Positions 3,316-49,117 of a stretch of 53,672 bases of DNA are shown piece by piece. This stretch comes from Shigella phage vB_Shi_2KOFFS. Positions within the stretch are counted from its first letter, which is position 1, and each line of letters opens with the position of its first letter. The notes below the pieces were generated by a model. That model had not been told where the DNA came from and did no database searches. It saw nothing but the letters and a program-made list of their open reading frames with translations. The DNA lies in sequence record PV615261. The stretch is one strand, 5' to 3'. The position numbers were made by a program, and so were the translations under genes.

Positions 3316-5082
3316 ATGATGAACGTTAAGCAATGTGTGGCTAAGATTAAGCACGATGTACCAGACTGTAAATCCACATCTGGCAAGTCTTTACAGGTTT
3401 GGTTGAATGTCGATGAAGCTGGTAATAAGAATTTTTCTGGTTACTGTTTTGCATGTGGCGTTCTAGTACCAAATCCTTACGGAAATAATCCGGAGAACAT
3501 TCCAGAGATTAAAGTCAAAACTCCAGAAGAAATTCAGGAAGAAGTTGATGAAATCACTGCTTGTCCTCCGTTTGATTTAACCCATCGCAGCATTGAGCCA
3601 GAATTTTGGAAAGCTGCTGGTGTTCGACTTCTATATTCAGAGTATGATGGAAAGACTCCAAATGCTCTGGCACATGGCTACACCAAAAATGGTAAACTTG
3701 TTCGTTGGAAGATTAAACTTCTGAACAAGAAAGTTATGTGGTCAGTTGGCGACACTCAGGGTAACGACCCTTACAACTGGATGGCTGCAAAAGCAATTGG
3801 CGGTAAGACACTGTTCATCACAGAAGGTGAAGAAGACTGTATCGCATTGCGTCAAATCCTCAAAACTATGAACCGTGGTGGTGCATATGAAGATTTGGAT
3901 TTTGCTGTAATTAGTTTGAGCGACGGAAGTGATTCCGTACACAAATGTTTGTCACCAGTTGCAGAAGAAATTAAGCAACGTTGGGAGCAGGTTGTTATCG
4001 TATTTGATGATGACGAACCTGGACGTAAAGCTGCAAAAGAAGCGTGCCGATTGTTGCCTGGTGCAATGATTGCAACACTTCCAGCTAACGATGCCAACGA
4101 TTGTTTGAAGCGTGGCTTGCTCAAAGCTACTCAATCTGCTGTTGTGTTCCGTGCTGCTCGTCCTCTGCCTACAGCACTTGTCAACAAAGAACTTCTTATG
4201 GAAGAGCTTGATGACGAGGTTGAACAGGGTGTGGATTATCCTTGGCCCAAATTAACCGACTTAATGTTTGGTCAACGTCGAGCCGAAGTTATTACAATCG
4301 GTGGTGCAGAAGGTGGTGGTAAAACTACACTGTCCCGTCAGATTGTGCATCACAACATTACCAAGCACGATTGGGGAGTGTTTACTGCATACATGGAGGA
4401 AACTCCTACAGAAACACTGCGCCGTATGGCTGGCCTTAATGACAACTTGCCATATTGGGAACCCGCGTTCACTCGTGAAGACCCTCGATATGATGAAGCT
4501 AAGTTCCGTCAAACTGCTGCGAAGATGCTTCGTAACATGGAGATTTGGGACCGCAAGCAAGCTGGAGAAGACCCTTATGAAACCTGGGATGGGTTAAAGA
4601 CGATTCTTCGTCAGATTGGACCAGACATTGATATGTTTGTCCTTGATAACTTAACCTACTTATCGGAAGGGATTTCTGCCTCAGAGAAGAACGACTTCTT
4701 AGGTAAGCTGTATGCAGATATTACTAAGCTGGCAGACCAATATCAGTTCCATGTAAATATCTTGTCGCACCTTAACCCTGTGGCAAAAGGTCAACGACCT
4801 CATGAGGATGGTGGACGTATCAAGAAGTCAGACTTTACTGGCTCACGTGCTGCTGCTAAATATTCTCATGGTATGTTTGGCTTTGAGCGTAATAGCCAGG
4901 CAGTTGACCCAAACTGTTCTATCATTCGTTCCATTAAGGCTCGTAAGAGTGGTAAAACAGAAGGCTTCAAGACGTACTATGACACCGAATCCGGTCGAAT
5001 CATTCAACGTTCTTGGGATGACTCGCTGTTCGAAACCAAAGAGATTGTTCAACTCACTAAGAAGAACGGTCCACACCAATAA
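3316..5082 (+). CDS. bifunctional DNA primase-helicase (TOPRIM plus RecA/DnaB-like ATPase)
   Basis: N-terminal Cys cluster; TOPRIM motifs FITEGEEDCIAL and VVIVFDDDEPGRKAA; Walker A ITIGGAEGGGKTT; 588 aa. Confidence 0.85.
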   Translation: MMNVKQCVAKIKHDVPDCKSTSGKSLQVWLNVDEAGNKNFSGYCFACGVLVPNPYGNNPENIPEIKVKTPEEIQEEVDEITACPPFDLTHRSIEPEFWKAAGVRLLYSEYDGKTPNALAHGYTKNGKLVRWKIKLLNKKVMWSVGDTQGNDPYNWMAAKAIGGKTLFITEGEEDCIALRQILKTMNRGGAYEDLDFAVISLSDGSDSVHKCLSPVAEEIKQRWEQVVIVFDDDEPGRKAAKEACRLLPGAMIATLPANDANDCLKRGLLKATQSAVVFRAARPLPTALVNKELLMEELDDEVEQGVDYPWPKLTDLMFGQRRAEVITIGGAEGGGKTTLSRQIVHHNITKHDWGVFTAYMEETPTETLRRMAGLNDNLPYWEPAFTREDPRYDEAKFRQTAAKMLRNMEIWDRKQAGEDPYETWDGLKTILRQIGPDIDMFVLDNLTYLSEGISASEKNDFLGKLYADITKLADQYQFHVNILSHLNPVAKGQRPHEDGGRIKKSDFTGSRAAAKYSHGMFGFERNSQAVDPNCSIIRSIKARKSGKTEGFKTYYDTESGRIIQRSWDDSLFETKEIVQLTKKNGPHQ

Positions 5083-5143: not shown

Positions 5144-5527
5144 ATGATGAAAATTTGTTCTAAGTGCAAAGTACCTCAAGATGAAGCAAACTTTCACAAG
5201 AGTTCATCTTGGTGTAAGCTTTGCAAGAAATTGAAGTATCGCGCAGAGTACAAATCTGCACCATTACCAGAGAAGCCTGTTCGTAATATTGAACGAGAGC
5301 GGGAACTAAATAAGGCAAGGTCTAAGAAACATGCAGAGTTAAATCCTAAGAAGCGTGCTGCCAGAGTCGCGGTACGTGGGATGATTCCTCCTGCACGTTG
5401 TATGGGGTGTTGCCAAGATAAGAAACTTGAAGCACATCACGACGACTACAATAAGCCAAAGGTTGTTCGTTGGCTTTGCAAAGAATGTCACACCCTGTGG
5501 CATATGAATAATACACCTATTGAATAG
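5144..5527 (+). CDS. HNH endonuclease (zinc-ribbon plus HNH)
   Basis: CSKCKV...CKLCKK zinc ribbon and C-terminal EAHHDDYNKPKVVRWLCKECHTLWH; paralogue of 46603..46995. Confidence 0.7.
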   Translation: MMKICSKCKVPQDEANFHKSSSWCKLCKKLKYRAEYKSAPLPEKPVRNIERERELNKARSKKHAELNPKKRAARVAVRGMIPPARCMGCCQDKKLEAHHDDYNKPKVVRWLCKECHTLWHMNNTPIE

Positions 5528-5540
5528 TTCGGAGCCTGAA

Positions 5541-7466
5541 ATGTTGTATCCTTACTCCAATATGTATGCTATGGATATTGAAACCACTGGCTTACTGGAC
5601 CAAATGAAGAAGCAAGAAGCACCGCGCTTGCACAACATGGGAATCATTGATGTTGTTTCTCGTGAAGAGAAGTGGACCGACAGAAAGTCTATCCAGGCAT
5701 TTCTGGATACAGGCCCAACATTAATCATGCACAACGGCGCAACCTTTGACTTTGAAGCACTGAGGTTCCTTGGCTACGACGTTTCAAAATGTACCTTAAT
5801 TGATACTTTGTTTATCAGTTGGTATCTGCAACCTCGTCGTGTTAAGCACGGCTTAGAAGGTTACGGCGAAGAGTTTGGTGTGCCAAAACCAGTCATTGAT
5901 GATTGGGAAAATCAAACTCAAGAAGAATACAACCATCGTGTGATGGAAGACTGCAAGATTCAGTTGAAGCTGTGGGAACAGCAATACATTCAACTCTTGA
6001 AGATTTATAAATCTCCTAGCGAAGTTAAGCGCTTCATTGAATACCTGATGACAAAAGCTCGTCAACAGGTTATTCAACAACGTACTCGCTGGAAGCTGAA
6101 CATTGAGAAGGCATTGGCATTTAAGGCCAAGCTGGAGCCAATGATTAAAGAGAAGACGGACGCATTGGAAGCATCAATGCCACGTATTCCAGAATATGTT
6201 ATCAAAACCCGTCCAGCTAAATGCCACAAGTTGAACGGACAATTATCTTCCGCTGGCATCAAGTGGAAAGCTATTTGTGATGCAAACGGTTTGGACTGGA
6301 AAGACCCAGACCTGGCTATCAAGGTTCTTAAAGGTTATAAGAATCCTAACGCTGGTTCTCATGTGCAAATTAAAGACTGGTTGTTCAGCTTAGGTTGGGA
6401 ACCGGAAACCTTTAAGTTTGACCGTAACAAGGAAACAGGTGAAACTCGCCAGATTCCACAAATCACTGTGAAGGATGAAGATGGCAATCCTGAAATATGT
6501 CCGAGCTTGCATAAGCTGGCGGAAAGAAACCCCGACTCTGGTATTCAACATCTTATTGGGATGGGCGTGTATAAACACCGTCTGTCTGTTGTTAATGGCT
6601 TCCTTCGCGACGTCGATGAAGATGGGTTCCTTACTGCACGATGCGGTGGCCTTACCAATACTTTACGCCTTAAACATCGCGAACTTGTTAACCTCCCTTC
6701 TATTCGTGTATTTGGCGGTGAAGAACTGCGTTCAATGTTGGAAGCGTGGCGCGAAGACTACGAACAGCTAGGCTCTGACTTGTGTTCTCTGGAAGACCGT
6801 TGTAAACACCACTTCCAGTGGATGTATGACCCTGAATACGTTAAGAAGCAGTTGGCACCAGACTATGATGCTCACCTTGCAATCGGCGTAATTGGTGGAT
6901 TTATTACTGAACAAGAGTCTCAGGACCACAAGGACGGAATTAAGAAGTGTAAACAACGTCCAATGTTTAAGACTACAAACTATGCTTGTCAGTATGGTGC
7001 TGGTGTGCCGACTGTAGCTCGTTCTGCTGGCTGTGACCAGACTACTGCTGCACGACTGCATAAAGCATATTGGGACTTGAACTGGTCTATTAAAGAGATT
7101 GCTGCAAACACCAAAGTTATCACAGTCGACGGTCAGATGTGGCAACAGAATCCAGTAAACAAATTCTGGTATTCATTGCGTACAGAGAAAGACCGCTTCT
7201 CCACATTGTGTCAGGGTACTGGTGCATATGTGTTTGATGTTTGGTGTAACAACATCATTGCAATTTGTAATGAACGTTGGGGCTGTGACCCACTTCTGTC
7301 CGGGCAATTCCACGATGAATTGATTCTCCAAGTTAAGAAAGGTTTCCGCGATTTGTGGACGGACTTGCTTAATGAGGCAATGGACCGAACCAACAAAGAA
7401 CTTAAACTTAACCGCGATTGTGCATGTGATGTACAGTTCGGTGATAACTACGCGGAGATTCACTAA
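5541..7466 (+). CDS. family A DNA polymerase with 3'-5' exonuclease domain
   Basis: Exo motifs MDIETTGL and HNGATFDFEAL; pol motif B KQRPMFKTTNYACQYGAG; motif C QFHDELIL; ATG 5541 after GGAG. Confidence 0.85.
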   Translation: MLYPYSNMYAMDIETTGLLDQMKKQEAPRLHNMGIIDVVSREEKWTDRKSIQAFLDTGPTLIMHNGATFDFEALRFLGYDVSKCTLIDTLFISWYLQPRRVKHGLEGYGEEFGVPKPVIDDWENQTQEEYNHRVMEDCKIQLKLWEQQYIQLLKIYKSPSEVKRFIEYLMTKARQQVIQQRTRWKLNIEKALAFKAKLEPMIKEKTDALEASMPRIPEYVIKTRPAKCHKLNGQLSSAGIKWKAICDANGLDWKDPDLAIKVLKGYKNPNAGSHVQIKDWLFSLGWEPETFKFDRNKETGETRQIPQITVKDEDGNPEICPSLHKLAERNPDSGIQHLIGMGVYKHRLSVVNGFLRDVDEDGFLTARCGGLTNTLRLKHRELVNLPSIRVFGGEELRSMLEAWREDYEQLGSDLCSLEDRCKHHFQWMYDPEYVKKQLAPDYDAHLAIGVIGGFITEQESQDHKDGIKKCKQRPMFKTTNYACQYGAGVPTVARSAGCDQTTAARLHKAYWDLNWSIKEIAANTKVITVDGQMWQQNPVNKFWYSLRTEKDRFSTLCQGTGAYVFDVWCNNIIAICNERWGCDPLLSGQFHDELILQVKKGFRDLWTDLLNEAMDRTNKELKLNRDCACDVQFGDNYAEIH

Positions 7467-8594: not shown

Positions 8595-9656
8595 ATGGCT
8601 CCTTCGGGAGCCTTTAATTTGGAGCTTACCAAAGTGAGTAAGAAACGAGTTTTGTTGCTGGTTGACGGCGACATGGTTGCATTCAGTCACTGTGCTGCTG
8701 AGGAATACGGCAAAGATTCAGAAGATATTAACTTTGCTAAGATTCAAATGTCAATGGATTCCAAGATGGAATTCCTTGCGAAACGCGTGGGAGCTACAGA
8801 AGTAGTCACCTGCATTTCACCATCCAAAACATTCCGTAATGTTCTTGCCGAGAATTACAAAGGCAATCGTGATGACGTGTGGCGACCAGAAAACTTAAAG
8901 AATGCGAAAGCACATCTTATGGTTGCCTGGAATGGTGTATGGATGAAGGGTCTGGAAGCAGATGACCTTCTTGCTGTATTCGCACGTCATGAATACGAAA
9001 TGACAATGGGCAAACGTAATGAGATTAAGAGCCTCAAGCGCATTGGTCCTTGCACATATGATGAAGTCTGGATTGCGTCGCTGGACAAAGACTTGCGACA
9101 AATCGGGCAGAATGGTGGTGCTGGTCCGGTAATTAAACATTACCAATGGGAACGAGAAACCCAGGGTATTGGTGAGAAGGTTGTAACTCCGCAGGATTAC
9201 GGCGAACTCAAATTAATCATCAAGGACAATGGCAAATCGAAGAAGAAAGAAGTTAAAGGCAATGGCCCTAAATTCTTCTTGCATCAATTGCTTATTGGCG
9301 ACTCAACGGATAACGTTATGGGTTGCGGAGTTCTTGAAGAAAGAATCTACAAAACTGGTGCCAAAGCTGGAGAAACTTATTTCCGTCGTGATGGTATTGG
9401 TGCAGTTGCTTCATTCGAAATGCTGGATGGTACAACCTCCTATGCAGAAGGTTTGAAGAAAGTTATTGGTGCATACATTATGCGCTTCGGAGATGGTTGG
9501 GAACAAGAGCTACTCAAAGTGGGCCGTCTTGTTTACATGCACCATCAAATTGAAAAGGGTAATTGTGTTCGCTTGTGGCATTACAAGAACATTAACGAAT
9601 ACTTTGACCTTAAAGAGAATCGTATCCTCACTCAAGAAGAGTACCTCCAGAAATAA
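8595..9656 (+). CDS. 5'-3' exonuclease / flap endonuclease (FEN, PIN-like)
   Basis: Motifs LLLVDGDMVAF, GLEADDLLAV and SLDKDLRQI matching the Pol I 5'-nuclease / T5 D15 family. Confidence 0.8.
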   Translation: MAPSGAFNLELTKVSKKRVLLLVDGDMVAFSHCAAEEYGKDSEDINFAKIQMSMDSKMEFLAKRVGATEVVTCISPSKTFRNVLAENYKGNRDDVWRPENLKNAKAHLMVAWNGVWMKGLEADDLLAVFARHEYEMTMGKRNEIKSLKRIGPCTYDEVWIASLDKDLRQIGQNGGAGPVIKHYQWERETQGIGEKVVTPQDYGELKLIIKDNGKSKKKEVKGNGPKFFLHQLLIGDSTDNVMGCGVLEERIYKTGAKAGETYFRRDGIGAVASFEMLDGTTSYAEGLKKVIGAYIMRFGDGWEQELLKVGRLVYMHHQIEKGNCVRLWHYKNINEYFDLKENRILTQEEYLQK

Positions 9657-12438: not shown

Positions 12439-12624
12439 ATGCGCACAATACAATGCCCCAACTGCCATTATGAAATTGCAGAAGATGATTTCATAACGCA
12501 GCAATGCCCTATCTGTGATTCATACATGCCACTAAACCGCCTGTACTTAAAGGCCGATTCTGGTTTAGGCAGCATCATTCGCATCAATCCCGTGCAAACT
12601 CAGCCATTAGTGGATTGTGATTAA
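12439..12624 (+). CDS. small zinc-ribbon protein
   Basis: CPNCHYE...CPICDSY paired CxxC motifs in 61 aa. Confidence 0.45.
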   Translation: MRTIQCPNCHYEIAEDDFITQQCPICDSYMPLNRLYLKADSGLGSIIRINPVQTQPLVDCD

Positions 12625-37215: not shown

Positions 37216-37770
37216 ATGTTATCATTCAAAGTCCTTGCACTTCTGACAGCTTTAGTTCACATCAACGCCCCAGCTTCGGTTGGGGCAGTGAATTCTGCTA
37301 TTACAGATTTTGCAAGTCACTCTTATTTAAATGGAAGTCTGAAACTATCTTCTTCACAACGCAAAGAGCTAGAATGCTACACTAAAGTTATCTGGTATGA
37401 AGCTCGCGGAGAAGACAAACATGGAAAGATTCTGGTAGCTAATGTCGTCCGTAATAGAACTAAGTTCGGGAAGCCATTCGCTAACACCGTTTGTGATGTT
37501 GTCTATCAACGCAACCAATTTGCATGGACACGAGAAGCAAAGAAGAAGAATGCTCAATGGAAGCATGTAGCAAAGGTTAATTATGCCACAGAACAACAAC
37601 AAGTTCTGGACACCATTAATGTTGCAATCTCTTTTGTATTATTTAATCAACCCTCTGTCACCAAAGCAACCCACTTTTGTACAGCATCGGAGAAGTGCAA
37701 CTTCAAGAATGTTAAAGGTTTGGGACGTTATGGTGGCCATAAATTCTATGAGTATCTAGGAAATCTGTAA
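37216..37770 (+). CDS. SleB-type cell wall hydrolase with N-terminal signal peptide (endolysin)
   Basis: Signal-like [24 protein letters not shown]; SleB-family block [28 protein letters not shown]...[13 protein letters not shown]. Confidence 0.7.
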
Positions 37771-38870
37771 TGGCTTACACTACCTTTTCACAAACCAAGA
37801 ATAACCAACTATTAGAACCAATGTTCTTTGGTCAGAACGTTAACGTTGCTCGATATGACCAACAGAAGTACAGCATCTTCGAGAAGTTAATCGAGAAGCA
37901 GTTATCTTTCTTTTGGCGACCTGAGGAGGTTGATGTTAGCCAGGACCGAATTGACTATGCTGGTCTTCCTGAGTGTGAGAAACACATTTTCACCAGCAAT
38001 TTACGATACCAAATCCTGCTTGATTCCATTCAGGGACGCGGACCAACCACAGTTTTACTACCAATTGTGAGCATTCCTGAGCTGGAAACTTGGATTGAAA
38101 CTTGGTCATTTTCGGAGACAATTCACTCTCGCTCTTACACGCATATTATTCGTAATATCGTGACAGACCCAAGTGTCATTTTCGATGAAATTGTGGAGAA
38201 TGAGCACATTAAAATGCGTGCAATCGGCATCTCCCAATATTATGACGAGCTTCAACATCTGACTTCCATGTGGCATCTGCATGAAGATAAAGTTTCTCTT
38301 CGTGAGCTTAAGAAGAAGCTGTATTTATGCCTCATGTCCATTAATGCACTGGAAGCAATTCGCTTTTATGTCAGTTTTGCTTGCTCATTTGCCTTCGCTG
38401 AACGTAAGTTAATGGAAGGAAATGCCAAGATTATTCGCTTAATTGCTCGTGATGAAGCACTCCATTTGACCGGAACTCAGCACATGCTGAACCTTCTTGC
38501 AAGCGGTGTTGATGACCCAGAAATGGCCGAAATTGCTAAAGAATGCCGTCAAGAATGCCAAGAAATGTTCGAAAATGTGGCCCAACAAGAGAAAGATTGG
38601 GCTGATTATTTGTTCAAAGATGGCTCAATGATTGGCTTAAATAAGCAAATTCTGTGCGGATATGTGGAATATATCACGAATATTCGTATGCAAGCAGTTG
38701 GATTGGATGCTCCATTCAAAGGTGCTACTAACCCGATTCCTTGGATTAACGCATGGCTAAATTCGGATGCTGTACAAGTTGCTCCACAAGAAACGGAGAT
38801 TAGTTCGTACCTTGTCGGGCAGATTGATTCCGAAGTGGACACCAATGCTCTGGGCGGATTTGAGCTGTAA
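37770..38870 (+). CDS. nrdB: ribonucleotide reductase small subunit (class Ia R2-like)
   Basis: [20 protein letters not shown] and [30 protein letters not shown] match iron-ligand and tyrosyl-radical regions of class Ia NrdB. Confidence 0.75.
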
Positions 38871-39015
38871 CGATTATATGCGAGAAGAGATTCGATGCGT
38901 TAGCATCGTTTCTCTTTGAGCTAGAATAAAACAAGTAAATTAAATATTTATTTATTCCCAATATTGCTACAATATTAAGAGTAATATTAGGAATGCGTAA
39001 AGTTAAAACCAAATG

Positions 39016-39050
39016 GTACATGGTCGGTCAACTGTACCTGCTTCAATCTT
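39016..39050 (+). repeat. 35-40 nt intergenic repeat element, copy 1
   Basis: GTACATGGTCGGTCAACTGTACCTGCTTCAATCTT; second copy at 42611-42650. Confidence 0.6.
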
Positions 39051-39419
39051 CGTTCACGGTCGGTCAGCTGTATCTCGCCGAAATTTGTTCGAACAGTTGT
39101 CTGACTATGAAATAATTTTTTTTTTATAATTTTTTTTTATTCTTAATATTGTTACAGAATTAATGAGACTAAAATTCGTAACAAAGCTACGAGACTCGAC
39201 TTGTTACAATATTAATGAGACTCGAATTGTGGCAATATTAATTTTTTATTTTTAGGGGCCGGGGAGCAGAAGCCCAACGTCCTATCGGACTTAAATACGG
39301 TCCCTACTCCAACTTTTTCCTACAGCCTATCGGCTTTCAAACAACACCAAGTTAGGCGCTTCGCTTATAAGTCAAGGTCAAAGGCAATCAGAGTACGCTG
39401 TTGTAATGTGCTAATCTCA

Positions 39420-39436
39420 CCATTAGTTGGTTGTGA
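39420..39436 (+). promoter_or_regulatory. conserved promoter-like motif (CATTAGTTGG family), upstream of RNA polymerase gene
   Basis: cCATTAGTTGGtTGTGA; one of at least 9 copies of consensus ACATTAGTTGGATGTGAA. Confidence 0.45.
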
Positions 39437-39498
39437 TTATGAATAGGCTACGCAAGTCTAATCCGTTTCAGTTAAATCATAATCAATTGGAGACTATC

Positions 39499-41613
39499 AT
39501 GACTAACGAAGAATACCGTGCACTGGCTGCTGATGGCGCTCGCTTGAAAGAAGAAGGCCAAGGTTGGAAAGACGTGCTCGATACGATGGACCGTTGCAAT
39601 CAGATGGTAGATGAAATCACCTCCGCTACACAATCCGAAACTAAAACCGAAACTAAATTGGAGACTCGCAAAATGACAACTATCTCAACTCAAACTATCA
39701 AATCCGTTGTCCCTGCTATCACTGCTCTGGTATATCGTGCCAAAGAGAAACAGAACTACATGCAACCTCAGACCTGTGCTATTGCTGCTCTTGCAATCTT
39801 TAAGATGATGACCTCATTCACTCGTGATGATGTTGTTCCTGCAATTGCAATGGTTGAGCTGGCTTCTGCTTCAATTGCTGATGCCAACCGCTACAACAAC
39901 GATTTGAAAGCAATGCACTATGTTGACCCAGCTATCAACCTCATTGGTCTGGCTAAACACTTTGGCTTCATCACCATGAACGAAGATAAGTCATTCCAAC
40001 AAACTGACACATGGGTTGAACTGGTTACAACCAAAGACACAGCAGTGCCATTCACTGAGCGTGTTACATCTGAATCTCGTCGCAAGCCTTTCGTTAAAGG
40101 TGGCAAAGTTAAGCCATCCAAGACTCTGAAAGCTGCAATCGAATTCCTGCAAGATACTGAGTACCATGTGGAGACTGAGATGGTTCGCATCATTCAGTCC
40201 ATGCTTGAGCAACGTACTTATGGTGGCTTGCAGATGCCAGAAGCAATCCAGACTGAACTCCATGTTTGGAACAATGCTGTAGCAATGATGAATCAGGACA
40301 CACTGTATTCTGACTACTTTGCTGATAACCGTGGCCGTCTGTATCATGTAGCATGTGCTGGCCCTAACCCACAATCCTCTGACTTTGCTCGTTGCTTGTA
40401 TTCTCACAATGTTGAGAACATCGTTAAGAAGTTTAACGAAGATGGTTCTACTACCATTGCATACAACATGTTCATGGCAGAGCTGGAAGATATTTCTGGT
40501 GGTGAATGGTGCAGTGCTAAACGTTTAACTTATGTTGCTCAGAATCCGGCTGGTTCACTTGCTCGCATGATGAACATGCCTAAAGCTGAACGTCCTTCCA
40601 AGCCATTCACTTATGTTCGTCTGGCTCTGGATTGGTTCAAGTTTGAGACTATAGGTGAATGCGATTCTCGTGTAGGCTTTGGCTTAGATGCTAAATGTTC
40701 TGGTACTCAATATCTGGCATTCATTGCTGGTAACATGGAAATGGCTCGTGCTACAGGTCTGGTTGATTCTGAGACTAAAGCATCTGACCCATACCAGTTG
40801 AGTCTCCGTGAACTGTTGAAGTTACTCGACCGCTCTTCAATGAAGCCATCTCCTGAAATCATGGACGAATTCTTGAATCCGAAATCTGGTCGTAAGTTTA
40901 TCAAAACTCCGTACATGGCTATCCAATATGGTGGTGGTAAAGCTGCATTAACTGGTTCTTCTGACTTTATCTCCTACATGACAGAAGCGCTCCAGATTCC
41001 TATGGAGAAAGCTGAGGCATTTGCTGAACTGTGTGTAGAAGCAATCCATAACGCATTGGGTGCTAAGATTAACATGTTCATTGAGAAAGCTGCTGATGCT
41101 GCATACAACCGTTGTGTTGAACTTGGTAAAGAGTACATCACATACCGTCACACAGACGGTCAGGTTGTAATGAAGCCTTGCTTCCCATCTCGTGAAATCT
41201 GTGAGGCATTCAGCATTCGTGTTGACTCTCAAACTCGTGTCATCTTTGGCCAGATTCAGGAGAATAAGCCTTGGACCATTCGTGAATCCAACCCAACTAA
41301 AGAAGAATTCAAGCGTACTTTCGTTGTTAACTACATTCAAGGTATTGACGCATTGGTTGCTCGTACTGTTGCAGTTAAAGCTAAAGAAGCTGGTCTTCGT
41401 GGTTTTACTTCAATCCATGATTGTTTCCGTTGCTGTCTGGCAGATGCTCCACGTATGATGGAAGTTATTCGTGCAGCATATGTTGAAATCTTCGTAACCA
41501 ACAATCAATTCGAGAATCTGTCTAAGCAACTTGGTGGCATTCAGATGTATCATGAGAACATCGTAACCGAAGAGCTTCTGATGAGCGAACACGCTTACTA
41601 CTTCTGTCAATAA
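39499..41613 (+). CDS. T7-like single-subunit DNA-dependent RNA polymerase
   Basis: Motif A GLDAKCSGTQYLAFIAG (T7 DGSCSGIQH), motif B RKFIKTPYMAIQYGGGK, motif C FTSIHDCFRC (T7 IHDSFGT); ATG 39499 after GGAG; about 704 aa. Confidence 0.8.
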   Translation: MTNEEYRALAADGARLKEEGQGWKDVLDTMDRCNQMVDEITSATQSETKTETKLETRKMTTISTQTIKSVVPAITALVYRAKEKQNYMQPQTCAIAALAIFKMMTSFTRDDVVPAIAMVELASASIADANRYNNDLKAMHYVDPAINLIGLAKHFGFITMNEDKSFQQTDTWVELVTTKDTAVPFTERVTSESRRKPFVKGGKVKPSKTLKAAIEFLQDTEYHVETEMVRIIQSMLEQRTYGGLQMPEAIQTELHVWNNAVAMMNQDTLYSDYFADNRGRLYHVACAGPNPQSSDFARCLYSHNVENIVKKFNEDGSTTIAYNMFMAELEDISGGEWCSAKRLTYVAQNPAGSLARMMNMPKAERPSKPFTYVRLALDWFKFETIGECDSRVGFGLDAKCSGTQYLAFIAGNMEMARATGLVDSETKASDPYQLSLRELLKLLDRSSMKPSPEIMDEFLNPKSGRKFIKTPYMAIQYGGGKAALTGSSDFISYMTEALQIPMEKAEAFAELCVEAIHNALGAKINMFIEKAADAAYNRCVELGKEYITYRHTDGQVVMKPCFPSREICEAFSIRVDSQTRVIFGQIQENKPWTIRESNPTKEEFKRTFVVNYIQGIDALVARTVAVKAKEAGLRGFTSIHDCFRCCLADAPRMMEVIRAAYVEIFVTNNQFENLSKQLGGIQMYHENIVTEELLMSEHAYYFCQ

Positions 41614-41632
41614 CAACTAAGCGCCAAGGATG

Positions 41633-41650
41633 GCATTAGTTGCATGTGAA
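41633..41650 (+). promoter_or_regulatory. conserved promoter-like motif copy
   Basis: gCATTAGTTGcATGTGAA, 26 nt upstream of ORF start 41676. Confidence 0.45.
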
Positions 41651-41675
41651 TCTAATAAACAATTTGGAGCATATC

Positions 41676-41843
41676 ATGTTTACAGTGACCCTAGTAACCT
41701 ATTACGGCAAACAAGTTTGTGAGAAGTTTGAGACTTTAGAAGAAGCAAGAGCTTTTGCAGCACTTGAAGAGAACATTTATGTAGAGTGTGAAATCACTGA
41801 TGGTGATAAGCAATACGAAATAGTTAAGCCTACACTCAACTGA
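41676..41843 (+). CDS. hypothetical small protein (55 aa)
   Basis: ATG after GGAGCATATC; downstream of promoter-like motif. Confidence 0.45.
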   Translation: MFTVTLVTYYGKQVCEKFETLEEARAFAALEENIYVECEITDGDKQYEIVKPTLN

Positions 41844-41893
41844 TTCCCAATATTCAGACAATATTGCTGCATGTAATATTGTCTCGATATTCG

Positions 41894-41911
41894 ACATTAG
41901 TTGGATGTGAA
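41894..41911 (+). promoter_or_regulatory. conserved promoter-like motif copy
   Basis: ACATTAGTTGGATGTGAA exact consensus; no ORF follows for about 1.1 kb. Confidence 0.45.
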
Positions 41912-42610
41912 GTAAAAGAATACGGAGAAATATTACTCACGTTGTTCGTGGGTTTCCGCATGTCATGTTGAATCATTCTAGAAACATTCAGCATGTCAGC
42001 TTTGAGTTACAGTGTTGTAATGATGTGGCAATCATTGAACTCCCTAGGTAGGCCACCTACAGTTCCAGCAACCATGACTTAGAGTAGGAATATCTATCCG
42101 AAACTTGTACTTCACCTATAGCATGTTCAATTGCGACAATATTGCTCCATCTCCTATTATAAAGGCCCACCCACAAGCCGGGAGATAACTTTGGTAATAT
42201 TGGAACTTTTGGACATGCTTCTTTCTTTCAATCAGAATTCGAAAGAAGAGAAGAGTCGGAGCAAAGCCTCTCGTTTTCACGCAGAAGCCGCCCCGATTTT
42301 GAGCAACAAATATTGTGACAATTTTGTCGCAGTATGGCATGTAAATATTGCTACAAATTGGCATGTTAGAATGTGGCAGAATTGTTAGAGGACTAATCAC
42401 CTCGAAGATACAATCGTCTACCAATCTGGCATGTTAATTTTGTAACAGTATTTGTGCCAATTTCGCATGTAATAGCTGTATCAGTAATGACCCAATATTC
42501 TTGCAACCCGCATGAATACTGGCTTCCAGCCAAGCGAAGGCTTTATCATCGCATGTAATATTGTGACAATATTGGGATAAAACCCTTTATTTAATTTGTT
42601 TTATTATGCT

Positions 42611-42650
42611 GTACATGGTCGGTTTTCCGTACCTGCTTGCTCCAATCTTA
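42611..42650 (+). repeat. 35-40 nt intergenic repeat element, copy 2
   Basis: GTACATGGTCGGTTTTCCGTACCTGCTTGCTCCAATCTTA; matches 39016-39050. Confidence 0.6.
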
Positions 42651-42765
42651 ATGTGCCAAATACGTTAAGTATGGGAGTAAACCTGTAATTAATGGTGCAT
42701 GTTTAATTGTGACAAAATTCGTCTATTTGGCAGATGAATTAGTTGCAATTAAGCATGTTCATTTA

Positions 42766-42783
42766 TCATTAGTTGCATGTGAA
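42766..42783 (+). promoter_or_regulatory. conserved promoter-like motif copy
   Basis: tCATTAGTTGcATGTGAA. Confidence 0.45.
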
Positions 42784-43076
42784 TAAGACCAAATCTCTGT
42801 AAATTCTGCTGAAATTGTGTGACAGATTTTAGAGAGATTATGTCTCCAAGCTAATCATTGTAGTTTTTAGACACTTTGTGTGTCACATATATAGCCTGTG
42901 AAAAACGTGTGGTTTATTGCCGGATTGCAACGCGCCCACCAGACTAGGAAGTCCCTGATGGCGGCACACACAGGAATACTATATAACTCCCTACAACTTT
43001 AAGGTGGATTGAGGTAAGACAAGACCTCCACAATCGTTCTGTAGGGAGTTCTTTTAACTTAGGAGAATAAGCAGAA

Positions 43077-46222: not shown

Positions 46223-46603
46223 ATGGCACAATATTCAGATGTAAACACTGGCATCATCGGTCCTAACGGCTTCAAGAAAGACCCAAAACATCCTGACATT
46301 CGTGGACGTATTAACGTTGACGGAATCTGGTATTGGGTGTCTGGTTGGAACAAGCAAGCCAATGGTAATGAATTTACCTCACTTGCATTAACCATCATGA
46401 CCCAAGAACAGGTTGATGAAATGATGCGTAAGCGTGAAGAGAAGGCTAAAGCCAAAGCTCAACCTCAAGCTGCCGCTCAACAGCAACAGCAACGCCAGCA
46501 ACCTTCTGCACAACAGCAAGCACCTGCTCAACAGCAAGCTCCGCAGTCATCTGGATACAACCCAAATGAGCCGCAGGACTTTGATAGCGACATACCATTC
46601 TGA
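46223..46603 (+). CDS. small protein with Gln-rich linker and SSB-type acidic C-terminal tail (DFDSDIPF)
   Basis: 126 aa; about 60-aa beta-rich N-terminus, Lys/Ala helix, QQQ-rich linker, terminal PQDFDSDIPF resembling the bacterial SSB C-terminal peptide. Confidence 0.6.
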   Translation: MAQYSDVNTGIIGPNGFKKDPKHPDIRGRINVDGIWYWVSGWNKQANGNEFTSLALTIMTQEQVDEMMRKREEKAKAKAQPQAAAQQQQQRQQPSAQQQAPAQQQAPQSSGYNPNEPQDFDSDIPF

Positions 46604-46995
46604 TGAATAAGGTCTGTAAAATCTGTGGGAGTTTAAAAGCTCCTACAGACTTCTATCGGAATGACAGGACATGTAAAGTTTGCCGTTGCGCCAAAGTACG
46701 TGCAAACCGTGCAGCAAAGATTGACCATTATCGCAAGTATGAACGAAAACGCGGTTATCATGGTAACGGCCTTAATGATGCCAGGAAGAAATATCCAAAT
46801 CAATATAAGGCCCAAACTGCTGTAAACAATGCTATTCGAGATGGACGATTACAGGCAAAACCTTGTCAAGTGTGCGGTTGCATTATATCTCATGCCCACC
46901 ATGATGATTACAACAAGCCTCTTGATGTTCGCTGGTTGTGTCCTCGCCACCACAATGAGTGGCACGCCGAAAACGGAGAGGGACTTAATCGATGA
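46603..46995 (+). CDS. HNH endonuclease (zinc-ribbon plus HNH)
   Basis: CKICGS...CKVCRC and HAHHDDYNKPLDVRWLCPRHHNEWH; paralogue of 5144..5527. Confidence 0.7.
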   Translation: MNKVCKICGSLKAPTDFYRNDRTCKVCRCAKVRANRAAKIDHYRKYERKRGYHGNGLNDARKKYPNQYKAQTAVNNAIRDGRLQAKPCQVCGCIISHAHHDDYNKPLDVRWLCPRHHNEWHAENGEGLNR

Positions 46996-48432: not shown

Positions 48433-48704
48433 TTTCGATAGACCAAGTTCCAGTTGAACTAAGTAAGGCAAAAGGTAAGCTAGATGATGCCAAATCTGAC
48501 TTATCTACCTTTGATTTAAATGCTCCGGCCGATAAAGTTAAAGTTTTCATCGACTGTATTGACGGATGGGTGCTTGTTGAGCACGCAGTCCTTCGAGCAT
48601 TACTTGTTGATGAAGTTACCAAGGCTCAGGCATCATTTGATGAACTTGATAACCTCAACACACTGTTAAACAATACTTTAAACGATGCGTTAAAGGGTAA
48701 ATAA
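48429..48704 (+). CDS. hypothetical protein (91 aa)
   Basis: ATGA overlap. Confidence 0.45.
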   Translation: MISIDQVPVELSKAKGKLDDAKSDLSTFDLNAPADKVKVFIDCIDGWVLVEHAVLRALLVDEVTKAQASFDELDNLNTLLNNTLNDALKGK

Positions 48705-49117
48705 TGAATGTTAAGCTCGGTCAACGTTCTTTAGACCGACTTAAGGGAGTAAATCCTTCATTAGTTGCAGTTTTCAAACGAGCATGTGAAACCATGCCTT
48801 TTGATGTAACTGTTTTGGAAGGTTTACGCTCTTATGAACGTCAACAAGAACTGTTAAAACAAGGTGCAACCAAAGTTTCAGTAAGCCGACACATGTCTGG
48901 TAACGCTTTGGACATTGCACCATATCCAATTGACTGGAATGACCTCGAACGATTCAAAGTTTTAGCTCATCACATGTTCAAAGCTGCAAAAGAGCTTGGA
49001 ATTACCATTCGTTGGGGCGGGAACTGGAGCCGTATTGATGAAAATCAGCCGTATCCACCACTTGCACCAGGTAAGAAGAAGCTGATTGATATGCCCCACT
49101 TCGAACTTCCAGCATAA
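48704..49117 (+). CDS. peptidase M15 family cell-wall peptidase (zinc D,D- or L-Ala-D-Glu peptidase fold)
   Basis: Zinc-ligand pattern [13 protein letters not shown] plus C-terminal MPHFEL; 137 aa, no signal peptide. Confidence 0.65.

What the first reader, a model, noticed from the sequence alone, without database searches (positions are those of the whole stretch)
38871..39426. AT-rich iteron-containing spacer with T10 and T9 tracts between nrdB and the RNA polymerase gene; a 35-40 nt element is duplicated at 42611
The spacer has homopolymer T runs (39116-39125, 39131-39139), direct repeats TTAATGAGACT (39160 and 39212), CCTATCGG(A/C) repeats (about 39281 and 39324), several CAATATT units, and the element GTACATGGTCGG...GTACCTGCTT...CAATCTT (39016-39050), which recurs almost verbatim at 42611-42650 on the other side of the polymerase gene. 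In T7-like phages the primary replication origin lies in an AT-rich promoter-containing region next to the RNA polymerase gene; the duplicated element flanking the polymerase gene could be a terminator/processing site or a recombination site.
Basis: partly seen in the sequence, partly recalled or inferred. Interest (0 to 1): 0.5.

Follow-up and report, generated by a model that had tools for sequence, protein, structure and literature searches.

The report
Terminal-repeat junction of a Chaseviridae phage
The AT-rich spacer is the conserved junction region of a phiEcoM-GJ1-like phage where the left edge of a roughly 3-kb terminal repeat carrying the RNA polymerase gene lies, and the duplicated element is an unannotated motif found just outside both edges of that repeat in at least five genera.

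Summary
All repeats exist at or within 1-2 nt of the stated coordinates and exceed chance.

The window is a Carltongylesvirus-like phage (Chaseviridae), a family with non-permuted genomes and ~3-kb direct terminal repeats (DTR).

Termini recorded for five relatives in four genera (Mangalitsa, JL1, 4HA13, Y2, PM1) all map to one invariant site, CCTATCGGAC|TTAAATACGG. That is window 39286-39291, inside the spacer. The right boundary maps to about 42253-42258.

The spacer therefore contains:
- the nrdB terminator;
- palindrome and promoter-like repeat arrays;
- the predicted left genome end.

The duplicated element has the core TGGTCGG-N6-7-(G/A)TAC. There are three copies: 39016, 39052 and 42611.
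- It lies 185-270 nt outside the left boundary and 350-365 nt outside the right one.
- Each copy sits about 40 nt after a 17-bp palindrome, AATATTGnnnCAATATT.
- It is not coding, is not a terminator, and has no conserved RNA fold.

My best reading is a DNA-level signal tied to replication or processing of the terminal repeat, analogous to T7 phiOR/phiOL. This function is inferred, not shown. An origin role is neither supported nor excluded.

The parts
38880..38921 (+). Intrinsic terminator hairpin ending the late lysis/nrdB operon
   Evidence: Folds at -24.2 kcal/mol with z = -6.0. It also matches the terminator consensus scan. It is about 100% conserved in 14 relatives.
38960..38976 (.). Perfect 17-bp palindrome AATATTGCTACAATATT, the start of module A
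   Evidence: The arms carry information and the central 3 nt do not. A palindrome in the same position precedes D2-A in Y2, L030, phiA050 and 4HA13.
39016..39043 (+). D2-A1: duplicated element, type A (TGGTCGGTCAACTGTACC core)
   Evidence: Present in all 14 close relatives and in 4HA13, Y2, L030, phiA050 and PM1.
39052..39079 (+). D2-A2: degenerate tandem copy with a 36-nt period
   Evidence: family D2. Lost through a 36-nt deletion in BSBP01 and TH24. Two copies are also present in L030 and phiA050.
39112..39138 (+). T10/T9 tracts (ATAATTTTTTTTTT x1.9). They include a sigma-70-like CTGACT-18-TATAAT match at 39101-39130.
   Evidence: The pattern T-run-TATAAT-T-run recurs in Y2, L032 and phiA050.
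39148..39242 (+). 26-nt tandem array of palindrome-like units plus TTAATGAGACT, 3.7 copies
   Evidence: TRF result. Unit number varies among relatives. The flopper record annotates it only as repeat_region, and the GJ1 record annotates one unit as a putative sigma-70 promoter.
39272..39310 (+). Invariant terminus site GCCCAACGTCCTATCGGAC|TTAAATACGGTCCCTACTCC. The predicted left physical end of the genome lies at 39286-39291.
   Evidence: Termini of Mangalitsa and 4HA13 (PhageTerm), JL1, Y2 and PM1 (both repeat copies in the record) map here. Identity to the 14 relatives is 1.00. The site is conserved as far as Erwinia, Pectobacterium and Aeromonas phages.
39286..42258 (+). Predicted direct terminal repeat of about 2.97 kb, collapsed to one copy in this assembly. 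It carries the RNAP gene and one small ORF.
   Evidence: BLAST of the DTRs of JL1, Mangalitsa, 4HA13 and Y2 onto the window. The ICTV profile describes the family as non-permuted with roughly 3-kb repeats.
39421..39437 (+). Copy of CATTAGTTGNATGTGAA, the motif that the GJ1 record annotates as a putative phage promoter
   Evidence: (family D1). There are ten copies, all on the + strand, scattered through the genome upstream of genes.
39499..41613 (+). Single-subunit RNA polymerase gene. Start is ATG 39499, or ATG 39673 as in most relatives.
42557..42573 (.). Perfect palindrome AATATTGTGACAATATT followed by GGGA, the start of module B
   Evidence: TTGTGACAATATTGGGA is conserved across genera.
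42611..42638 (+). D2-B: duplicated element, type B (TGGTCGGTTTTCCGTACC core)
   Evidence: It lies 350-365 nt downstream of the DTR right boundary in Mangalitsa, 4HA13, Y2 and PM1.
42647..42669 (+). Hairpin with the conserved loop GCCAAAU
   Evidence: z = -5.2. Two pairs are kept through changes on both sides; Bp10 has GTTTGT/ACAAAC where Y2 has GAATGT/ACATTC.

Best explanation
The spacer is the junction region of a terminally redundant Chaseviridae genome.

Reading left to right, it holds:
1. the terminator of the late lysis/nrdB operon;
2. a palindrome, followed about 40 nt later by two tandem copies of the D2 element;
3. T-tracts and a 26-nt array of palindrome or promoter-like units;
4. the left boundary of a roughly 2.97-kb direct terminal repeat (DTR), at 39286-39291. 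The DTR contains the RNA polymerase gene and ends near 42253-42258.

In the virion, the spacer therefore adjoins only the right-hand copy of the repeat, and the left genome end starts at TTAAATACGG.

The duplicated element belongs to a duplicated module: hairpin, then the 17-bp palindrome AATATTGnnnCAATATT, then about 40 nt, then TGGTCGG-N6-7-(G/A)TAC. One module lies just outside each DTR boundary, and both face the same way.

Inferred mechanism: the modules are DNA-level signals, with the palindromes bound by a dimeric protein. They act like the orphan promoters phiOR and phiOL that flank the T7 terminal repeat. They would start local transcription-coupled DNA synthesis through the single repeat copy of a concatemer junction, or recruit the packaging machinery, so that both ends can be cut with a full repeat.

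What is shown: the element's position, conservation and non-coding nature. What is inferred: its function.
For: Identity of the phage:
- 61 phage records match. The best are phiEcoM-GJ1-like Escherichia and Yersinia phages at 88-96%.
- The family has linear, non-permuted genomes with roughly 3-kb terminal repeats (ICTV profile).

Left terminus, placed within 6 nt of the same invariant sequence by five genomes in four genera:
- Mangalitsa and 4HA13 by PhageTerm.
- JL1, whose record holds an exact 2995-bp repeat at both ends.
- Y2, 2608 bp.
- PM1, 2665 bp.
- Mapped onto the window.

Right boundary: recorded for the two relatives that align there, at window 42253 (Mangalitsa) and about 42258 (JL1).

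Conservation:
- The terminus site is 100% conserved in 14 relatives.
- It is detectable by BLAST in Erwinia, Pectobacterium and Aeromonas phages.

D2:
- Only three copies in 53.7 kb. None is expected by chance.
- Present at both positions in all 14 close relatives, and in 4HA13, Y2, L030, phiA050 and PM1.
- Always outside the repeat: 185-270 nt upstream of the left boundary and 350-365 nt downstream of the right one.
- Type A (TGGTCGGTCAACTGYACC) and type B (TGGTCGGTTTTCCGTWCC) are each preserved across genera.
- A palindrome starts 54-61 nt before D2 in most modules examined, A and B alike. 4HA13 module A (24 nt) and phiA050 module A (adjacent) are closer.

Palindromes:
- The arms carry 0.9-2.0 bits and the centre 0.1-0.45 bits, which is the pattern of a dimeric protein-binding site.
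- They cluster only around the DTR boundaries.

The T7 analogy is reasonable because the phage encodes:
- a gp4-like primase-helicase (E = 5e-31 to T7 gp4 structures);
- a family A DNA polymerase and a 5'-3' exonuclease;
- SSB, an endonuclease and a lysozyme-like amidase.

In T7 and T3, the RNAP-lysozyme complex pauses at the concatemer junction to start maturation and packaging (PMC3276506). T7 phagemids need an ori, a pac site and the terminal repeat (PMC13236587).
Against: - No read-level or experimental data exist for this phage. The termini are transferred by homology.
- The published PYps23T repeat (2339 bp, PMC8762354) has different boundaries. Both fall inside copies of ATTAGTTGGA|(C/T)GTGAA, corresponding to window 39431 and 41905. 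Either ends differ between close relatives or one method is wrong.
- The distance from D2-A to the cut varies from 185 to 270 nt, which argues against a fixed-spacing cleavage signal.
- The two modules are in direct, not mirror, orientation relative to the two boundaries.
- The palindromes match neither the genome-wide promoter-like motif nor a good sigma-70 consensus, so their promoter status is open.
- No terminase small subunit or other candidate binding protein was identified.
Confidence: 0.5

Rival explanations
1. One reading: the AT-rich spacer, or the repeat arrays on both sides of the RNAP gene, is the main replication origin. This would be either a T7-type origin (promoter, AT-rich unwinding region, primase site) or an iteron-type origin. 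D2 would supply primase recognition sites on the strand displaced by rightward transcription.
For: - The replisome is T7-like.
- AT content is 71% at 38920-39255, with T10 and T9 tracts.
- There are 26-nt, 36-nt and 14-nt tandem repeats.
- In module B the roughly 35-nt stretch between palindrome and D2 is 80% or more A+T and T-rich in every genus, although its sequence is not conserved.
- The D2 core contains TGGTC/GGTC. From memory, T7 primase sites are (G/T)GGTC and GTGTC.
- GTC is kept in every D2 copy examined except L032-B.
- GC skew is positive almost everywhere. Its only clear dip is at 39001-40000.
Against: - A 5-mer match carries little weight, and the specificity of this primase is unknown.
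- The invariant GG after GTC is not explained by primase recognition.
- The spacer has no DnaA boxes, and I did not search for an initiator gene.
- The palindromic repeats have variable centres, unlike directly repeated iterons.
- From memory, T7's primary origin is downstream of gene 1.
- GC skew is confounded because every gene lies on one strand.
Confidence: 0.2
2. D2 is part of the 5' leader of two early transcripts that start at the palindromes. It would act at the RNA or RNA polymerase level as a pause, attenuation or antitermination element (as with lambda nutL/nutR or HK022 put), or as part of a roughly 140-nt small RNA ending at the T10 tract.
For: - Each module follows a hairpin that looks like the end of a transcription unit: the nrdB terminator for module A, and a covarying hairpin (AGCC/GGCT in the window, AGAGC/GCTCT in phiA050, ACCTGT/ACAGGT in Y2) for module B.
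- TTGTGACAATATTGGGA in module B is conserved asymmetrically and resembles SP6/T7-type promoters in 12 of 18 positions (my own comparison from memory).
- Region 39008-39140 folds at -33 kcal/mol with z = -3.9. In that fold D2-A pairs with CTGACTATG just before the T10 tract.
- Relatives tolerate 18-nt self-contained hairpin insertions in the loop.
- A covarying hairpin follows D2-B.
Against: - RNAalifold finds no structure over D2-B and no compensatory change in the D2-A helix. TH33 breaks one pair.
- D2 alone has z = -0.2 and -1.3.
- The long-range partner sequence is absent in Y2 and 4HA13.
- No Rfam family matches.
- No transcription start data exist for this family.
Confidence: 0.2
3. The element is conserved because it encodes small proteins: a 40-aa ORF at 38993-39115 and a 20-aa ORF at 42605.
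For: - Several records annotate a hypothetical protein here: flopper_25, Mangalitsa_082 and PYps23T ORF081.
- An ORF is open in 14 of the 15 phages compared.
- Insertions are multiples of 3 nt.
Against: - A 1-nt indel places D2 in two different reading frames, ..WYMVGQLYL.. in some phages and ..MVHGRSTV.. in others.
- TH33 has a stop after 8 codons.
- The alternative frame is closed in flopper and Bp10.
- The ATG inside or upstream of D2 is lost in 4HA13 (ATA, ATT), Y2 and the GJ1-type copy B.
- There is no Shine-Dalgarno sequence.
Confidence: 0.03
4. The duplication is a neutral relic of recombination between the two repeat-rich regions and has no function.
For: The extended 3' similarity (CTGCTT..CAATCTT) occurs in copy A in only 2-3 of the 15 compared phages (full in the window and Mangalitsa, CAATCTT alone in SA91KD). 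It looks like a product of exchange between copies or between phages.
Against: The core is retained at both positions, with distinct A and B subtypes, across Escherichia, Yersinia, Erwinia, Pectobacterium and Aeromonas phages whose RNAPs are only 66-76% identical. Flanking non-coding sequence has diverged over the same span.
Confidence: 0.05

Closest known systems
Long direct terminal repeats of Chaseviridae (Erwinia phage Y2, Pectobacterium phage PM1, Escherichia phages Mangalitsa, 4HA13 and JL1)
   Same: The invariant terminus sequence is the same. The gene content of the repeat is the same (RNAP plus small ORFs). The flanking modules are the same.
   Different: The ends of this particular phage have not been determined. 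Repeat length differs between relatives (2608-3234 bp). PYps23T is reported with other boundaries.
T7/T3 concatemer-junction region: the terminal repeat flanked by orphan phage promoters phiOR and phiOL and by the repeat arrays SRL/SRR (Dunn & Studier 1983, from memory), with the RNAP-lysozyme pause coupled to packaging (PMC3276506)
   Same: - A terminal repeat is bracketed on the outside, at a few hundred bp, by similar elements in the same orientation with no gene directly behind them.
- Tandem short repeats lie next to the repeat.
- The set of RNAP, lysozyme-like amidase and replisome genes is T7-like.
   Different: - The repeat is about 3 kb, not 160 bp, and it contains the RNAP gene.
- The flanking elements do not match the genome-wide promoter-like motif.
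- They carry palindromes of the dimer-binding type.
- The phage is a myovirus with a different terminase.
- No function has been demonstrated.
T7 primary replication origin: promoters phi1.1A/B, an AT-rich region and a gene 4 primase site (from memory)
   Same: The order is the same: a promoter-like motif, then an AT-rich stretch, then a TGGTC-containing motif. The phage has a gp4-like primase-helicase.
   Different: - There are two modules flanking the repeat, rather than one downstream of gene 1.
- The specificity of this primase is unknown.
- Initiation has not been mapped.
Terminase small-subunit recognition arrays (lambda cosB R sites, SPP1 pacL/pacR, P1 pac hexamers; from memory)
   Same: Multiple short repeated protein-binding sites flank the cleavage positions.
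   Different: - There are two cleavage positions 3 kb apart.
- The sites are palindromic.
- No small terminase subunit was identified.
- The spacing between D2-A and the cut is variable.
Lambda nutL/nutR and HK022 putL/putR
   Same: Two copies of one element each lie a short way downstream of a promoter-like site at the head of rightward transcription.
   Different: There is no conserved RNA hairpin over D2 and no boxA/boxB-like sequence.

Membership tests
Chaseviridae long direct terminal repeat (left boundary lying in the spacer) | Sequence homologous to termini recorded in relatives | tested here: met
   Five genomes in four genera start or end their repeat at window 39286-39291. The site is invariant in 14 relatives.
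Chaseviridae long direct terminal repeat (left boundary lying in the spacer) | The repeat contains the RNAP gene and ends in the conserved non-coding region downstream | tested here: met
   The DTRs of JL1 and Mangalitsa align to window 39286-42258.
Chaseviridae long direct terminal repeat (left boundary lying in the spacer) | Physical ends and doubled read coverage in this phage's own virion DNA | not testable with these tools
   No reads are available. The window holds one collapsed copy.
T7-type promoter-coupled replication origin | A phage RNAP promoter immediately upstream | tested here: inconclusive
   The upstream motif is the palindrome, not the genome-wide motif CATTAGTTGNATGTGAA. The ICTV profile says the promoters of this family have not been identified.
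T7-type promoter-coupled replication origin | AT-rich unwinding region followed by a primase recognition site | tested here: inconclusive
   AT-rich stretches and TGGTC are present. The specificity of this gp4-like primase is unknown.
T7-type promoter-coupled replication origin | Replication initiates here | not testable with these tools
   This needs marker-frequency or 2D-gel data.
Iteron-type origin | Three or more directly repeated initiator-binding sites | tested here: inconclusive
   A 26-nt array with 3.7 copies exists. Its conserved part is a palindrome with a variable centre, and copy number varies between relatives.
Iteron-type origin | DnaA boxes and/or an adjacent initiator gene | tested here: not met
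   There is no TTWTNCACA in the spacer. The neighbouring genes are nrdB and RNAP. The replisome is T7-like, a type that uses no initiator.
Intrinsic (rho-independent) terminator, as a reading of the duplicated element | A stable GC-rich hairpin followed directly by a U-run | tested here: not met
   D2-A has z = -0.22 and D2-B has z = -1.27. Neither has an adjacent U-run, and the terminator scan does not report them. The separate hairpin at 38880-38921 does qualify.
Structured RNA element (nut/put-like, sRNA, riboswitch) | A conserved secondary structure with compensatory changes, or an Rfam match | tested here: not met
   No pairs are predicted over D2-B. The D2-A helices show 0 compensatory pairs. 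The only Rfam matches are spurious, below-threshold miRNA hits.
Protein-coding small ORF | One reading frame and one start codon conserved across relatives | tested here: not met
   Two frames are in use, TH33 has a premature stop, and the ATG is lost in other genera.

The most novel reading that the evidence does not exclude
The palindrome-plus-D2 modules are the so-far unknown cis-acting system that defines and duplicates the 3-kb terminal repeat of Chaseviridae. They would be a combined replication-priming and packaging signal placed outside both cut sites and read by a dimeric phage protein. One consequence would follow: the RNAP gene copy at the left end has no upstream promoter region of its own, so early RNAP expression would depend on the right-end copy or on end joining.
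Probability: 0.25. Interest if true: 0.6.

Novelty: new variant of a known kind. Interest (0 to 1): 0.35.

Why it matters
How long terminal repeats are generated and recognised is poorly understood outside T7. For Chaseviridae, the ICTV profile states that the promoters have not been identified.

This analysis gives a precise, conserved candidate cut site and a pair of family-wide flanking modules. These are concrete targets for end mapping, transcription-start mapping, footprinting and mutagenesis.

There are also practical uses:
- The analysis says where genome records of these therapeutic-candidate coliphages should start.
- It shows that many deposited records are arbitrarily permuted.
- It shows that short ORFs annotated across the element are probably not genes.

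Tried and rejected
1. Coding explanation for D2. Translating the small ORF in 15 phages showed two frames and one premature stop. Rejected.
2. D2 as a terminator or structured RNA. Single-sequence folds, two RNAalifold runs and an Rfam scan gave nothing for D2 itself. Only a neighbouring hairpin (42647-42669) and the nrdB terminator are supported.
3. The palindromes as canonical sigma-70 promoters. The scan found no more sites than in shuffles (11 against 11.9). The only good + strand hit in the spacer is 39101-39130. By manual inspection only two units have a proper extended -10.
4. The palindromes as the phage RNAP promoter. They resemble the SP6 promoter, but they occur only around the repeat boundaries. 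A different 17-mer is distributed genome-wide upstream of genes. Left open.
5. DnaA boxes. None in the spacer.
6. tRNA genes. None.
7. Literature. No transcriptome or end-processing study of Chaseviridae is in the library. The GJ1 and Y2 genome papers are not held.
8. Identifying a terminase small subunit or another DNA-binding candidate for the palindromes. None found among the proteins scanned.
9. A shared cut-site motif. TCGGA occurs at both boundaries in Carltongylesvirus and ..TC|G.. in PM1 and JL1. It is too short and not general (Y2 and phiA050 differ), so I make no claim.
Full report
**What the window is.** The region lies between nrdB (37770-38870, PF00268) and a single-subunit RNA polymerase gene (PF00940). 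All large ORFs are on the + strand. Megablast and tblastn place the window among phiEcoM-GJ1-like phages (Chaseviridae, Cleopatravirinae, Carltongylesvirus). Nucleotide identity is 88-96% to some 40 Escherichia and Yersinia phage records. The ICTV profile describes the family as linear, terminally redundant and non-permuted, with terminal repeats of about 3 kb. It states that the promoters have not been identified.

**Check of the observation.**
- T10 lies at 39116-39125 and T9 at 39130-39138. These are the only homopolymer runs of 9 or more in 53.7 kb.
- TTAATGAGACT at 39160 and 39212 belongs to a 26-nt tandem array at 39148-39242, 3.7 copies.
- CCTATCGG lies at 39281 and 39326.
- CAATATT is the half-site of a 17-bp palindrome, AATATTGnnnCAATATT. 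There are 18 matches against 4.6 expected. Thirteen of them (12 after dropping an overlapping site) fall in 38960-39239 and 41849-42573, on the two sides of the RNAP gene.
- The duplicated element (here called D2) is at 39016-39043 and 42611-42638. No shuffle produced any match.
- A third, degenerate copy lies 36 nt after the first, at 39052-39079.
- The spacer is 64% A+T, and 71% at 38920-39255, against 56% overall.

- Mangalitsa annotates a 3234-bp direct terminal repeat found with PhageTerm. Its first base aligns to window 39290/39291. The sequence before it, at the end of that record, is ...CCCAACGTCCTATCGGAC.
- 4HA13, from a different genus and also analysed with PhageTerm, has exactly the same junction, CCTATCGGAC|TTAAATACGG.
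- JL1 carries both repeat copies in its record, an exact 2995-bp duplication. It starts at CGGACTTAAAT, which is window 39286.
- Erwinia phage Y2 (2608 bp, both copies in the record) starts 3 nt earlier at the homologous site.
- Pectobacterium phage PM1 (2665 bp) does the same.
- BLAST of these repeats onto the window gives 39286-39291 for the left boundary. The right boundary maps to 42253 (Mangalitsa) and about 42258 (JL1).
- The block 39270-39300 is identical in all 14 aligned relatives. It is the only part of the spacer that BLAST still finds in Erwinia, Pectobacterium and Aeromonas phages (compared).

In virions, the spacer upstream of 39291 sits only before the right-hand repeat copy.

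One published result disagrees. The 2339-bp repeat of PYps23T was determined by ligation-PCR and primer walking (PMC8762354). Both of its boundaries fall inside copies of the 17-mer ATTAGTTGGA|(C/T)GTGAA, which correspond to window 39431 and 41905. A boundary that falls inside a repeated 17-mer at both ends could come from template switching, but I cannot decide this.

**Anatomy of the spacer.**
- 38880-38921 is a strong terminator hairpin, -24.2 kcal/mol with z = -6.
- 38960-38976 is a perfect palindrome.
- D2-A1 and D2-A2 follow about 40 nt later.
- Next come the T-tracts, which contain the best sigma-70-like match on the + strand (CTGACT-18-TATAAT).
- Next comes the 26-nt array. The GJ1 record annotates one of its units as a putative sigma-70 promoter, and its copy number varies among relatives.
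- Then come the terminus site, a copy of the GJ1-type putative phage promoter motif at 39421, and the RNAP start.

**The duplicated element is part of a duplicated module.**
- In both places D2 begins 54-56 nt after the start of a perfect palindrome (38960 to 39016, and 42557 to 42611), and that palindrome follows a hairpin.
- The same layout is found in 4HA13, Y2, the metagenomic relative L030, Aeromonas phage phiA050 and PM1. The RNAPs of 4HA13 and L030 are about 75% identical to the window's; Y2's repeat aligns to the window's RNAP gene at 72% nucleotide identity.
- The core is TGGTCGG-N6-7-(G/A)TAC. It has a type A form (TGGTCGGTCAACTGYACC) upstream and a type B form (TGGTCGGTTTTCCGTWCC) downstream, and each is conserved across genera.
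- Wherever the repeat boundaries are recorded, both copies lie outside the repeat. Copy A is 185-270 nt before the left boundary. Copy B is 350-365 nt after the right boundary.
It looks like exchange between copies or between phages.

**What D2 is not.**
- It is not coding. A 1-nt indel places it in two different reading frames in different phages. TH33 has a stop after 8 codons. The ATG within or before it is replaced in 4HA13, Y2 and GJ1-type copies.
- It is not a terminator, and it is not a conserved RNA structure. Folds give z = -0.2 and -1.3. RNAalifold predicts nothing over D2-B. It finds no compensatory change for D2-A. Rfam gives nothing.
- In the window alone, a long hairpin pairs D2-A with CTGACTATG just before the T10 tract (z = -3.9). 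The partner sequence is absent in other genera, so I treat this as unproven.
- A neighbouring hairpin at 42647-42669, with loop GCCAAAU, does show compensatory changes.

**The palindromes.**
- Across 15 instances in the window, the arms are informative (0.9-2.0 bits) and the three central bases are not (0.1-0.45 bits). Orthologous perfect copies in other genera differ only in the centre. This is the signature of a site for a dimeric DNA-binding protein.
- The module-B copy, in contrast, is conserved asymmetrically as TTGTGACAATATTGGGA. By my own comparison from memory, it resembles SP6/T7-type promoters.
- Because the palindromes occur only around the repeat boundaries, while CATTAGTTGNATGTGAA occurs ten times on the + strand across the genome upstream of genes, I leave their promoter status open.

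**Mechanism.** The phage has a T7-like set of genes:
- a gp4-like primase-helicase (E = 5e-31 to T7 gp4 structures);
- a family A DNA polymerase and a 5'-3' exonuclease;
- SSB, an endonuclease and a lysozyme-like amidase.

In T7 and T3 the terminal repeat is flanked on the outside by the orphan promoters phiOR and phiOL (from memory; phiOL is mentioned in PMC3276506). The RNAP-lysozyme complex pauses at the concatemer junction to start maturation. Packaging of plasmids requires an origin, a pac site and the repeat (PMC13236587).

By analogy, I propose that the two modules are DNA-level signals that bracket the single repeat copy of a concatemer junction. They would either start local, transcription-coupled DNA synthesis through it or recruit the packaging machinery, so that both ends can be cut with a full repeat. 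Position, conservation and the non-coding nature of D2 are shown. The function is inferred.

Three rivals remain open:
- an early-transcript leader element;
- neutral duplication, which the cross-genus conservation makes unlikely.

**Verdict.** The region is largely explained by a known family feature, the long terminal repeat junction. The D2/palindrome modules that flank the repeat are, as far as the records and papers available here show, undescribed; the flopper record annotates only the T-tract and 26-nt tandem repeats, as bare repeat_region features. This is a new variant of the known class of terminal-repeat-flanking cis elements. Interest is moderate.

Noticed in passing
window 39484-39657: A 174-nt insertion flanked by direct repeats AATTGGAGACT gives the RNAP a 58-aa N-terminal extension (ATG 39499 instead of 39673). 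Mangalitsa, TH33, Bp10 and JL1 share it, and the other eleven aligned relatives, including GJ1, lack it. The listed TTG start at 39427 is probably not the real start.
   Followed up: partly
window 41850-43076: About 1.2 kb has no credible ORF. It is filled with about a dozen composite units of GCATGT followed by AATATTGTGACAATATT-like palindromes, and it spans the predicted right repeat boundary. The layout is conserved in Erwinia, Pectobacterium and Aeromonas relatives. Function is unknown: early promoters, operators or packaging sites.
   Followed up: partly
window 39421, 41634, 41895, 42767, 46132, 52346 (weaker: 7575, 12605, 27086, 50242): The 17-mer CATTAGTTGNATGTGAA occurs ten times, always on the + strand and upstream of genes. 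It is the putative phage promoter of the GJ1 record. The published PYps23T terminal-repeat boundaries fall exactly inside two copies of it, which suggests either a link between this motif and end formation or a PCR artefact.
   Followed up: partly
window 42647-42669: A hairpin with the invariant loop GCCAAAU lies about 10-30 nt after D2-B (about 10 nt in the window). Its stem covaries (GAATGT/ACATTC in Y2, GTTTGT/ACAAAC in Bp10, U-G wobble in the window). z = -5.2.
   Followed up: yes
relatives L002 (SA91KD), L012 (Bp10), L008 (EcoM1), L013 (Pel53), aligned to window 39038-39090: Three independent 18-nt insertions are each a perfect mini-hairpin (TCTCCTTCGGAGA in two, GTTACGAAGTAAC in the third). 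They sit at different points between the D2-A copies and the T-tract.
   Followed up: no
window 38993-39115: A short ORF across D2-A is open in 14 of the 15 phages compared, but in two different frames. Several GenBank records annotate it as a hypothetical protein, which is probably an over-annotation.
   Followed up: yes
window 3316-5082, 5520-7466, 8595-9656, 46223-46995, 48704-49117: The phage has a T7-like replication and processing gene set in a myovirus background: gp4-like primase-helicase, family A DNA polymerase, 5'-3' exonuclease, SSB, endonuclease and a lysozyme-like amidase. The primase N-terminus has only a degenerate zinc-ribbon motif (H/C-x4-C ... CxxC).
   Followed up: partly
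record PP952070.1 (L013): The record labelled 'Staphylococcus phage Pel53' (host Staphylococcus hyicus) is about 88% identical in DNA to these coliphages over this region, with an RNAP 92.7% identical in protein. The host label looks doubtful.
   Followed up: no
window 12439-12624: A 61-aa ORF with two CxxC pairs (zinc-ribbon-like) overlaps the start of the large terminase gene. No recognisable small terminase subunit was found nearby.
   Followed up: no
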